Shown in pieces: positions 21,001 through 21,887 of a stretch of 21,887 nucleotides of DNA (position 1 is its first letter; every line of letters begins with the position of its first letter). The stretch comes from a virus (lineage: Duplodnaviria; Heunggongvirae; Uroviricota; Caudoviricetes). The position numbers are program-made. Location: IMG/VR virus record IMGVR_UViG_2534681878_000037; one strand, written 5' to 3'.

Positions 21001-21887
21001 ATGATGAATATCAGTTCGTTATTCATGACGCCACGCATTGGATGAGAAAAGTATATCCAGCAGCACCGCAGCAGGATGGTGAATGATGCCGCCAGTTAAA
21101 GTTGTGATTATCACTTTGGTGATGATAGTGATTGCGAGAATCATGTCTGGTGAAATTGTGTGGATATGGTAATGGCTAAGGCAGCAGCAGAGCGCAACTA
21201 ACAATCCTCGCACTCGCGGGGATTTCTTTTATCTGAACTCGCTACGGCGAGTTTTGTTTTATGGAGACAAGAAATGTCAGATTTGGCTATGAAGGTTTTG
21301 AAATGGCAATCAACTGGCGATGTCGGCATCAGTAGCGCAACTCTTGCCTCAATCGCATGTGGCCTGAAAAAGAATATCTATGGTCATGGCTTCGGTGCTC
21401 CACATGACGCAGCCGATTTCAGACGATGCGTTGCACTTGTTGAGCAGATTCCAGAAATCAGAGATTCATTCGACAAGGTTGCAAAGCGCGTTCCGGCATT
21501 CAAAGGAATCCTCAACGAATGGGATTCCCTCGTTGCTCTGTTGAAGTCTGAAATGAAGATACACGGAAACAAAGCACCAGAGACTTACAGAAGAATCAGC
21601 GAGCTACGCAAGGACTAACGCCTCACACTCGATGAGGCCTGTTCATATCTGATAGAGCCGCTATATGGCGGTTTCTTTTTGCCTGGAGAATTAAGATGAC
21701 CGATACCAGCCTGATTCCTGAGAAAGAAGTGATGAACAAGCTCGGTGTTTCATCACGTCAGACAATCTGGAACTATACCAAACGGCACGGATTTCCGAAG
21801 CCAGTCAGAACCCACCCCAAATCATACCTTCGTGAAGCTGTTGAAGGGTGGATTCTTAACGGTGGCGTTAATCAGAAATGCTCCTGA

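What the first reader, a model, noticed from the sequence alone, without database searches (positions are those of the whole stretch)
21206..21685. Terminator-flanked single-gene cassette (moron-like) encoding a 114-aa unknown protein
The ORF 21274..21618 is bracketed by hairpin plus T-tract terminators on both sides (21236-21260 upstream, 21657-21680 downstream) and has its own SD. This promoter-gene-terminator layout is typical of independently expressed lysogenic-conversion morons. The protein has no motif I recognise.
Basis: partly seen in the sequence, partly recalled or inferred. Interest (0 to 1): 0.4.

Follow-up and report, generated by a model that had tools for sequence, protein, structure and literature searches.

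The report
Variable early phage gene before xis
This is a real but ordinary accessory gene of a lambda-like Shiga-toxin prophage: it sits in a swappable slot just before the excision gene, has no promoter of its own, and encodes a protein from a large phage family that nobody has named.

Summary
ORF 21274..21618 (114 aa) is a real gene under purifying selection, with a GGAG Shine-Dalgarno site. It has terminator-like hairpins on both sides: two upstream (21203-21224 and 21235-21254) and one downstream (21655-21674).

The moron reading is only partly supported. I found no sigma-70-like promoter. The sequence that travels with the gene starts about 17 nt before its ATG. GC content matches the neighbouring genes.

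The hairpins belong to neighbouring modules. The upstream pair is a ~70-bp linker that phage lambda itself carries. It occurs in over 200 phage records and in 2461 of 5426 complete E. coli genomes. The downstream hairpin lies where 434 has an annotated terminator, and its 3' arm comes with the xis/int module.

Between linker and xis, phages carry one to three interchangeable genes, and crossovers fall inside the hairpins or T-tracts.

My best reading is a facultative gene at the far end of the early-left operon, expressed by read-through transcription during lytic growth.

The protein belongs to PHROG 1229. It has no Pfam or NCBIfam match, and its confident all-helical model has no PDB neighbour. 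At least 2858 50%-identity clusters are related, including members of a 9NA-like (virulent-type) genus. Its function is unknown; gene neighbours hint at DNA metabolism.

The parts
21199..21267 (+). Conserved ~70-bp tandem-hairpin linker. It ends in the Shine-Dalgarno site that serves whichever gene follows it.
   Evidence: It is 95-100% identical in Min27, Sf6, MG40, HK140 and lambda, and homology breaks on both sides of it. Of 2461/5426 complete E. coli genomes matching the 501-bp query 21195-21695, most outside the 796 gene carriers match only the linker part, up to 8 places per genome.
21203..21234 (+). Upstream terminator-like hairpin 1: 9-bp stem, loop ACTC, then TCTTTTATCT.
   Evidence: dG -13.1 kcal/mol, z -7.03. 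Variants change U.G to U-A or C-G, which keeps pairing.
21235..21262 (+). Upstream terminator-like hairpin 2: 8-bp stem, loop TACG, then TGTTTTAT.
   Evidence: dG -11.9, z -4.05. It is annotated as a terminator in phage MG40. Position 41/52 is U.G in 22 variants and U-A in 20, so it stays paired only as + strand RNA.
21263..21266 (+). Shine-Dalgarno site GGAG, 7 nt before the ATG.
   Evidence: Read directly from the sequence. It is conserved in every context of the gene.
21274..21618 (+). 114-aa gene, a member of PHROG 1229. Predicted soluble, all-alpha, seven helices.
21619..21650 (+). Relic of the 5' end of a P22-type xis gene. It travels with the 114-aa gene and contains the small hairpin GCCTCACACTCGATGAGGC.
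   Evidence: Compare SPN9CC, where the intact xis start ATGGAATCACACAGCCTCACACTAGATGAGGCCTGTGCATTTCTC follows the homologue's stop codon. Decayed versions follow the gene in nearly all of the other contexts read.
21655..21684 (+). Downstream terminator-like hairpin plus T-tract. It lies where 434 has an annotated terminator just upstream of pI/xis, which I recall as t'I.
   Evidence: dG -10.5, z -2.04. The 3' arm and T-tract are identical to HK140, where the site is annotated as a rho-independent terminator. The junction lies in the loop. Lambda and 434 have GCCGCCTGATGGCGG plus a T-run in the same place.
21696..21887 (+). AlpA-type excisionase gene (xis), the next gene downstream. The integrase gene beyond the window end is convergent.

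Best explanation
The 114-aa ORF is a facultative accessory gene in the last slot before xis, at the far end of the early-left (pL-type) operon of a mosaic lambda-like Stx prophage. It is not an autonomous transcription unit. The unit that moves between phages is Shine-Dalgarno site, ORF and a short relic of a P22-type xis.

The flanking hairpin/T-tract sites belong to neighbouring modules. Upstream is a tandem-terminator linker that lambda itself has between ea8.5 and lambdap35. Downstream is a terminator that comes with the xis/int module and lies where 434 has an annotated terminator.

Inferred: these intrinsic terminators stop ordinary transcription. The slot gene and xis are then made only from termination-resistant early-left transcripts after induction or infection, as is established for xis and int in lambda. 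The near-identical hairpin/T-tract/SD sequences also act as crossover points that shuffle one to three small genes in this slot.

The protein is a small soluble all-helical protein of a very large unnamed phage family. Its invariant residues are S20, P43, D45, D48, R51, C52 and W83. My weakly supported best guess is that it acts early in lytic growth on DNA metabolism or on a host nuclease or recombination factor.
For: Position and strand:
- The gene is co-oriented with Ea22-like, DUF551 and other early-left genes, downstream of a CI-like repressor.
- It is followed by xis.

No promoter. Homology between contexts starts at the SD.

Linker:
- It is shared regardless of the downstream gene.
- It is present in lambda.
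- Of 2461/5426 E. coli genomes matching the 501-bp query, only 796 carry the gene; most of the rest match only the linker part.

Slot architectures in IMG/VR loci:
- The gene right after the linker, in about 120 sites: a 55-aa gene in 76, the 114-aa family in 18, an Sf6 gp19-like gene in 11, EaC in 2, xis directly in a few.
- In the 73 sites with enough downstream DNA, when the 114-aa family is present it is the last of the recognised genes before xis.

Junctions lie inside hairpins or T-tracts.

Annotators of MG40, HK140 and 434 independently marked these hairpins as terminators.

The gene is real: dN/dS 0.06-0.13.

Protein family:
- 2858 50%-identity clusters at E<=1e-3.
- No Pfam, NCBIfam or PADLOC match.
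- pLDDT 93.7.

Neighbours of distant homologues:
- RdgC, with start/stop overlap, in two phage genera.
- A PDDEXK exonuclease and an AAA_23 ATPase.
- SSB.
- An HNH endonuclease.
- A DNA methylase.
Against: No transcript data were available, so both silence in the lysogen and read-through after induction are inferences.

I did not recognise an N-type antiterminator in this window. About 900 nt after the repressor/IS region are unexplained. How the tandem terminators are overcome in this particular phage is therefore open.

The covariation test on 42 linker variants gave no double-sided compensatory changes, and the score did not exceed shuffles. Structural selection on the hairpins rests only on wobble-compatible one-sided changes and on hairpin-for-hairpin replacement.

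The DNA-metabolism guess rests on gene neighbourhood in a handful of loci.
Confidence: 0.6

Rival explanations
1. It is a true moron or lysogenic-conversion gene. It would be transcribed in the repressed prophage from a promoter that a sigma-70 consensus scan cannot see (non-canonical, activator-dependent or alternative sigma), and it would benefit the lysogen.
For: The gene shows a presence/absence pattern among related phages. It has terminators on both sides in this window. It lies next to the prophage end, where accessory genes are common. It is carried by about 15% of complete E. coli genomes.
Against: No promoter-like site was found, and the transferable unit starts at the SD. The terminator T-tract ends 11 nt before the ATG. 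GC content is not deviant. Homologues occur in a 9NA-like Nonanavirus and a 93.5-kb Pseudomonas phage, and an HK022 record note calls the gene an 'N15 early protein homolog'. In P22-like phages the gene abuts xis directly.
Confidence: 0.1
2. The protein is an accessory factor of excision or integration, working with Xis and Int. That would explain why it always sits immediately before xis.
For: When present in lambda-like and P22-like phages it is the last of the recognised genes before xis. It carries a relic of a P22-type xis start with it.
Against: It is found next to four unrelated xis/int modules: lambda-type, 2851/AlpA-type, mEp043-type and P22-type. It is absent from phages with the same xis/int, namely HK140 and lambda. 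Homologues sit in regions without an integrase in a 9NA-like phage, a Carvajevirus, a Pseudomonas phage and Vibrio phages. The adjacency is explained well enough by ancestral linkage.
Confidence: 0.06
3. The protein is a counter-defence factor, for example a sponge or enzyme acting on a nucleotide signal, or an inhibitor of a host defence nuclease. It would be carried in a slot that phages use for such accessory genes.
For: It is a small early protein that is present or absent among relatives. The family is very wide, spanning Proteobacteria and Actinobacteria phages. The invariant polar residues S20/S21, D45, D48 and R51-C52 at helix starts suggest a pocket. Neighbours include a Lar-like anti-restriction gene and DNA methylases.
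Against: No similarity to any PADLOC, Pfam or PDB entry, including solved anti-defence proteins. No experimental link. I did not have model coordinates, so I could not test whether the invariant residues cluster in three dimensions.
Confidence: 0.15
4. The hairpins are not working terminators. They are conserved only as DNA-level recombination linkers (boundary sequences) or as mRNA-stabilising 3' structures.
For: Junctions fall inside them. The covariation test showed no compensatory pairs. Sequence identity is very high, which fits recent spread.
Against: They have canonical geometry on the transcribed strand only: a GC-rich stem, a tetraloop and a U-run. The frequent A/G polymorphism keeps U-A or U.G pairing only in + strand RNA. 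An unrelated hairpin (CCGCTTAATGCGG) replaces hairpin 1 in some phages while the T-tract is kept. The 434 record cites experimental literature for the terminator at the equivalent downstream site.
Confidence: 0.1

Closest known systems
The lambda segment ea8.5 / linker / lambdap35 / terminator hairpin / pI-xis (NC_001416, 29.08-29.37 kb)
   Same: Lambda has the same tandem-hairpin linker with the same SD context (TTTTATGGAGA-N5-ATG). A hairpin/T-run lies just upstream of xis, and the slot is at the far end of the pL operon. [quoted passage not shown]
   Different: In lambda the slot holds the 55-aa lambdap35 gene, not the 114-aa gene. Lambda xis/int are co-oriented and use the CII-dependent pI. 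Here xis is AlpA-type, int is convergent, and no N homologue was recognised in the window.
HK022_32 and phage 434 CPT_434_33 (hypothetical proteins)
   Same: They are 96-97% identical at the protein level and occupy the same position as the last gene before xis. In 434 a literature-cited terminator lies just downstream.
   Different: In HK022 and 434 the gene follows the 55-aa gene rather than the linker directly, and the xis/int module is lambda-type.
Morons as defined for HK97/HK022 (Juhala/Hendrix; reviewed in PMC3594210)
   Same: It is an extra gene relative to close relatives, and it has a terminator-like site downstream in this window.
   Different: It has no promoter of its own and no deviant GC content. 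The terminators belong to the neighbours. It lies inside an early operon rather than being inserted into a late operon.
Boundary or linker sequences of lambda-like phage mosaics (annotated as 'bsq' features in the Sf6 record)
   Same: These are short conserved intergenic sequences at which homology between phages starts and stops.
   Different: This particular linker is not one of the annotated Sf6 bsq features. It is built from two terminator hairpins plus an SD, and it marks a multi-gene variable slot.

Membership tests
Moron (HK97/HK022 definition, PMC3594210) | An extra gene lying between genes that are adjacent in related phages | tested here: met
   HK140 and lambda have linker, 55-aa gene, then xis. 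HK022 and 434 have the 114-aa gene added between them. The window has it in place of the 55-aa gene.
Moron (HK97/HK022 definition, PMC3594210) | Its own promoter | tested here: not met
   No sigma-70-like site was found upstream, even at 7 of 12 matches with a usable -10. The unit shared between contexts starts about 17 nt before the ATG. Non-canonical promoters cannot be excluded by computation.
Moron (HK97/HK022 definition, PMC3594210) | Its own terminator | tested here: not met
   A downstream hairpin exists, but its 3' arm and T-tract belong to the xis module (identical in HK140, which lacks the gene). It is absent where the gene abuts a P22-type xis.
Moron (HK97/HK022 definition, PMC3594210) | GC content different from the surrounding genes | tested here: not met
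   GC 0.467 and GC3 0.47, against 0.45-0.47 in the neighbours and 0.466 for 15-21 kb of the window.
Moron (HK97/HK022 definition, PMC3594210) | Expressed from the repressed prophage | not testable with these tools
   This needs RNA-seq, 5'-RACE or proteomics of the uninduced lysogen.
Intrinsic (rho-independent) terminator | A GC-rich stem-loop followed directly by a U-run on the transcribed strand | tested here: met
   Three sites with dG -13.1, -11.9 and -10.5 kcal/mol, each followed by at least 5 T in 8 nt.
Intrinsic (rho-independent) terminator | Evolutionary support for the RNA structure (covariation) | tested here: inconclusive
   Across 42 variants 96.1% of cells are paired, against 37-55% for slid controls. 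There are no double-sided changes, and the covariation score does not exceed shuffles. Only wobble-compatible one-sided changes are seen.
Intrinsic (rho-independent) terminator | Stops RNA polymerase in vivo or in vitro | not testable with these tools
   The only support is other annotators' calls.
Lambda-like delayed-early 'ea'-type accessory gene of the pL operon | Co-oriented with the early-left genes and lying between them and xis/int | tested here: met
Lambda-like delayed-early 'ea'-type accessory gene of the pL operon | Transcribed from pL by antiterminated polymerase | not testable with these tools
   This is inferred from lambda, which carries the same linker upstream of xis. No N homologue was recognised in this window.
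PHROG 1229 (unknown function) | Full-length match to the profile HMM | tested here: met
   E = 3e-51, residues 1-114 against profile positions 1-113 of 116.
Any Pfam, NCBIfam, PADLOC family or solved fold | A significant sequence or structure match | tested here: not met

The most novel reading that the evidence does not exclude
The 114-aa protein represents a very large, unnamed phage protein family: at least 2858 clusters at 50% identity, in temperate and likely virulent phages of Proteobacteria and Actinobacteria. Its confidently predicted fold has no neighbour in the PDB. Its invariant Ser-Ser / Asp-x-x-Asp / Arg-Cys / Trp signature would form a ligand-binding or catalytic pocket. On this reading it is a new kind of early phage effector, such as an inhibitor or modulator of a host nuclease or recombination or defence component, carried in a terminator-delimited swap slot next to xis.
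Probability: 0.2. Interest if true: 0.6.

Novelty: new member of a known kind. Interest (0 to 1): 0.25.

Why it matters
For this locus the result is mostly a correction. The gene should not be counted as a lysogenic-conversion moron of an Stx prophage.

Two by-products may be useful.

First, the ~70-bp tandem-terminator linker is a convenient landmark. Lambda has it, and it accounts for most of the matches in 2461 of 5426 complete E. coli genomes. It marks a hypervariable one-to-three-gene slot just upstream of xis, where new phage accessory genes can be harvested systematically.

Second, the slot gene studied here belongs to one of the larger phage families that still has no name, Pfam entry or structural relative. 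That makes it a reasonable target for a functional screen.

Tried and rejected
Searches on the 114-aa protein that found nothing:
- Pfam, NCBIfam and PADLOC, as a single sequence and for all 67 family members.
- PDB sequence search with the single protein and with a 67-sequence profile.
- The viral structure library BFVD returned only uncharacterised homologues.
- The AFDB50 structure library was not available.

Other dead ends:
- Rfam found no family at the locus.
- Extra domains in longer family members (about 190-290 aa) have no Pfam or PHROG annotation.
- The one informative-looking fusion, CCA-adding enzyme + HD + this domain (P0172), occurs on a single 1.9-kb contig. It has an internal MKDKMQ start-like motif, so it is probably two adjacent genes read as one.
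- Names from all public sources for more than 300 homologues are 'hypothetical protein'.
- Literature searches for the gene, the PHROG number and the mEp/HK phages found nothing on function.
- The paper cited in the 434 record for the terminator (PMID 6305007) is not held.
- Covariation analysis of the linker hairpins was inconclusive.
- I looked for an N-type antiterminator or a structured leader in 15.0-16.6 kb of the window and found neither.

Considered and rejected: that the small hairpin at 21620-21638 is a functional RNA element. It is coding sequence of a decayed P22-type xis.

Full report
**What the window is**

The window is a mosaic lambda-like Shiga-toxin prophage. Its right end is 100% identical to Stx2-converting phages 1717 and 2851. 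The rest resembles other Stx phages such as Lys8385Vzw.

Late, lysis, stx and replication genes run on the minus strand. A CI-like repressor lies at 11806-12567. From about 16.2 kb onwards the early-left genes run on the plus strand. These include an HD hydrolase, an Ea22-like protein at 18927-19874 and a DUF551 protein at 20736-21086.

The ORF in the finding is the last gene before an AlpA-type excisionase at 21696-21887. In the matching records a convergent integrase follows.

**Check of the observation**

- There are two upstream hairpins, not one: 21203-21224 (dG -13.1 kcal/mol, z -7.0) and 21235-21254 (dG -11.9, z -4.1). Each is followed by a T-run.
- The downstream hairpin at 21655-21674 is weaker (dG -10.5, z -2.0).
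- All three are among the best 11 terminator-like sites in 20 kb, and all are on the coding strand.
- The ORF is a real gene. dN/dS is 0.06-0.13 against HK022, 434 and mEp043. Homologues extend to about 30% identity. The AlphaFold2 model has mean pLDDT 93.7.

**Is it a promoter-gene-terminator unit?**

No promoter-like site was found. The standard scan finds none on the plus strand between the DUF551 gene and the ATG. A relaxed scan of 20900-21290 gave nothing better than 8 of 12 matches. The T-tract of hairpin 2 ends 11 nt before the ATG, so a promoter cannot lie between the terminators and the gene.

The comparative evidence is stronger. In HK022, 434 and mEp043 the same gene (96-99% protein identity) follows a 55-aa gene instead of the linker. 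Similarity to the window begins only at TGGAGACAAGAAATG. Across 39 copies read from IMG/VR and phage records, the upstream context falls into just these two classes. The unit that moves therefore carries a ribosome-binding site but no promoter.

GC content (0.467, GC3 0.47) is the same as in the neighbours. The published definition of a moron requires an own promoter, an own terminator and deviant GC content (PMC3594210). Only the 'extra gene' criterion is met.

**Where the terminators belong**

*Upstream.* The segment 21199-21267 runs TAACAATCCTCGCACTCGCGGGGATTTCTTTTATCTGAACTCGCTACGGCGAGTTTTGTTTTATGGAGA. It is a linker found at 95-100% identity in more than 200 phage records, irrespective of what follows it.

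| Phage | Gene that follows the linker |
|---|---|
| Min27 (933W-type), Sf6 | Sf6 gp19-like gene |
| MG40 (P22-like) | EaC |
| HK140 | 55-aa gene |
| Lambda | lambdap35, the 55-aa gene (linker lies between ea8.5 and lambdap35) |

Homology between these phages breaks immediately before the linker and immediately after its SD. A 501-bp query spanning the linker, the gene and the downstream hairpin matches 2461 of 5426 complete E. coli genomes, up to 8 places per genome. Only 796 genomes cover 80% or more of it and so carry the 114-aa gene; most of the other sampled matches cover only the linker part.

*Downstream.* The 3' arm and T-tract of the hairpin, plus the xis SD, are identical in HK140. 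HK140 has the same AlpA xis and convergent int but lacks the 114-aa gene. The junction lies in the hairpin loop.

Lambda, 434 and HK022 have GCCGCCTGATGGCGG (or CGCCGCATCAATGCGGC) plus a T-run in the same place. In the 434 record this site is annotated as a terminator with a literature reference, directly abutting the CII-dependent pI. From memory this is the terminator called t'I; I could not read the cited paper.

In P22-like phages such as SPN9CC, the homologue's stop codon is followed two bases later by the ATG of an intact P22-type xis, with no hairpin. The 30-55 nt that follow the gene in every other context are a decayed copy of that xis start. In the window this relic is 21619-21650.

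So the picture of a cassette flanked by terminators results from mosaic joints. It is not a property of the gene's own module.

**A variable slot**

The linker anchor was found at about 120 sites in IMG/VR viral contigs. The gene immediately after the linker was as follows.

| Gene after the linker | Sites |
|---|---|
| 55-aa gene | 76 |
| 114-aa family | 18 |
| gp19-like gene | 11 |
| EaC | 2 |
| An excisionase directly | 3 |

In the 73 sites with enough downstream DNA, the architectures include:

- 55-aa gene, then lambda-type xis (25 sites)
- 55-aa gene, 114-aa gene, then xis of three different types
- gp19-like gene, 55-aa gene, then 114-aa gene

When present, the 114-aa gene is the last of the recognised genes before xis.

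Each small gene ends in, or is followed by, a hairpin/T-run/SD block. In the 55-aa gene the TGA stop codon sits in the hairpin loop. These repeated blocks are where homology switches between phages. The pattern is one of interchangeable genes inside an operon.

**Are the hairpins working terminators?**

Their geometry is canonical, and annotators of three other records marked them as terminators.

I tested 42 distinct linker variants:

- 96.1% of cells are paired, against 37-55% when the partner columns are slid.
- There are no double-sided compensatory changes.
- The covariation score does not exceed shuffles, so this test is inconclusive.

Three smaller observations do favour an RNA-level structure:

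- The frequent A/G polymorphism in hairpin 2 gives U-A in 20 variants and U.G in 22, which stays paired only in plus-strand RNA.
- The U.G pair in hairpin 1 becomes U-A or C-G in variants.
- In some phages an unrelated hairpin (CCGCTTAATGCGG) replaces hairpin 1 while the T-run is kept.

**How the gene is probably expressed (inference)**

In lambda, xis and int are expressed after induction from pL transcripts that N protein has made resistant to termination. That is established lambda biology. Lambda carries this same linker and the terminator hairpin upstream of xis. In lambda these hairpins must therefore be read through by antiterminated polymerase.

The simplest model for the window has three parts:

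- The tandem terminators and the downstream terminator block unmodified transcription.
- The slot gene and xis are silent in the lysogen.
- Both are made together as late products of the early-left operon after induction.

One step is open for this particular phage. I did not recognise an N-like protein. About 900 nt between the IS element and the first early-left ORF (15260-16190) have no ORF, no Rfam match and no unusual folding energy.

**The protein**

It matches PHROG 1229 (unknown function) at E = 3e-51. It matches nothing in Pfam, NCBIfam or PADLOC.

The family is large and widespread:

- A profile search of 1.84 billion representative proteins finds 2858 clusters at E <= 1e-3 and 659 at E <= 1e-10.
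- Every source name among more than 300 relatives is 'hypothetical protein'.
- Members occur in HK022, 434, the mEp phages, Salmonella P22-like phages and Vibrio phages of about 45 and 60 kb.
- They also occur in Nonanavirus (9NA-like) and Carvajevirus phages, in a 93.5-kb Pseudomonas phage and in Arthrobacter phages.
- The HK022 record notes an 'N15 early protein homolog'.

Structure and conserved residues:

- The model is seven helices.
- In 67 diverse members the invariant residues are S20, P43, D45, D48, R51, C52 and W83. W11, G18, S21 and P60 are nearly invariant.
- This gives the signature W-x3-G-x2-G-x-SS-x-T ... P-x-D-P-x-D-[FL]-x-R-C ... PE ... WDEL.

Gene neighbours of distant homologues are early DNA-metabolism genes, often with overlapping start and stop codons:

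- RdgC
- a PDDEXK exonuclease and an AAA_23 ATPase
- SSB
- an HNH endonuclease
- a DNA methylase

This is the only functional lead. I take it as weak support for a role in phage DNA metabolism or in modulating a host nuclease or recombination factor during lytic growth. A counter-defence role is not excluded.

**Verdict**

The sequence features are real. The gene is best described as an interchangeable accessory gene of the distal early-left operon, not an independently expressed moron. The layout is standard lambda-like phage mosaicism, and lambda has the same linker. The locus is of low interest in itself.

The residual interest lies in two things: the uncharacterised protein family, which is very widespread, and the linker as a marker for a variable gene slot next to xis.

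Noticed in passing
window 3389-3448 (+) and 3450-3663 (-): Rfam matches to the anti-GcvB sRNA AgvB (56.6 bits, just at its threshold of 56) and, right next to it on the other strand, the sRNA STnc100 (190.7 bits).
   Followed up: no
window 12802-14971: A ParA-like ORF (12802-13752) is followed by an IS3-family element with an ALIL frameshift pseudoknot at 14039-14155 and a transposase orfB at 14081-14971. The element is inserted just downstream of the CI-like repressor.
   Followed up: partly
window 15260-16190: About 900 nt with no convincing ORF lie between the IS element and the first early-left gene. The stretch is partly conserved in Stx2c phages, SfV/SfIV and SPN1S. 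It has no Rfam hit and no unusual folding energy (z -0.84). No N-type antiterminator was recognised anywhere in the window, so how early-left transcription passes the terminators in this phage is unexplained.
   Followed up: partly
window 21083-21172 (+): A 29-aa strongly hydrophobic ORF (MMPPVKVVIITLVMIVIARIMSGEIVWIW) has a start codon that overlaps the stop of the DUF551 gene. It could be a small membrane peptide.
   Followed up: no
window 21619-21650; L008 3355-3420: The 3' flank of the 114-aa gene is a decayed copy of the first ~10-18 codons of a P22-type xis. It is retained next to three other, unrelated xis/int modules, as a fossil of an ancestral gene-xis linkage.
   Followed up: yes
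Stx2 phage 86 and 933W-type Stx2a phages (H55-H57, H109-H111): Many Stx2a phages keep only the first ~56 codons of the 114-aa gene (window 21246-21442, 95% identity), fused to other sequence. E. coli genomes also hold many truncated or fused versions joined to Ea22-like, DUF550, ERF or Kil fragments. Deletion and recombination junctions therefore also fall inside the gene.
   Followed up: partly
L001 6769-7947; L012 1946-3124: In the 2851/HK140-type module the integrase gene is convergent with xis and overlaps it by 20 nt. This differs from lambda's co-oriented xis-int, so early-left read-through past xis would be antisense to int.
   Followed up: no
L013 (P0172): A single metagenomic contig encodes a CCA-adding enzyme/HD protein fused in frame to a member of the 114-aa family. 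It has an internal start-like MKDKMQ motif, so it is probably two adjacent genes merged.
   Followed up: partly
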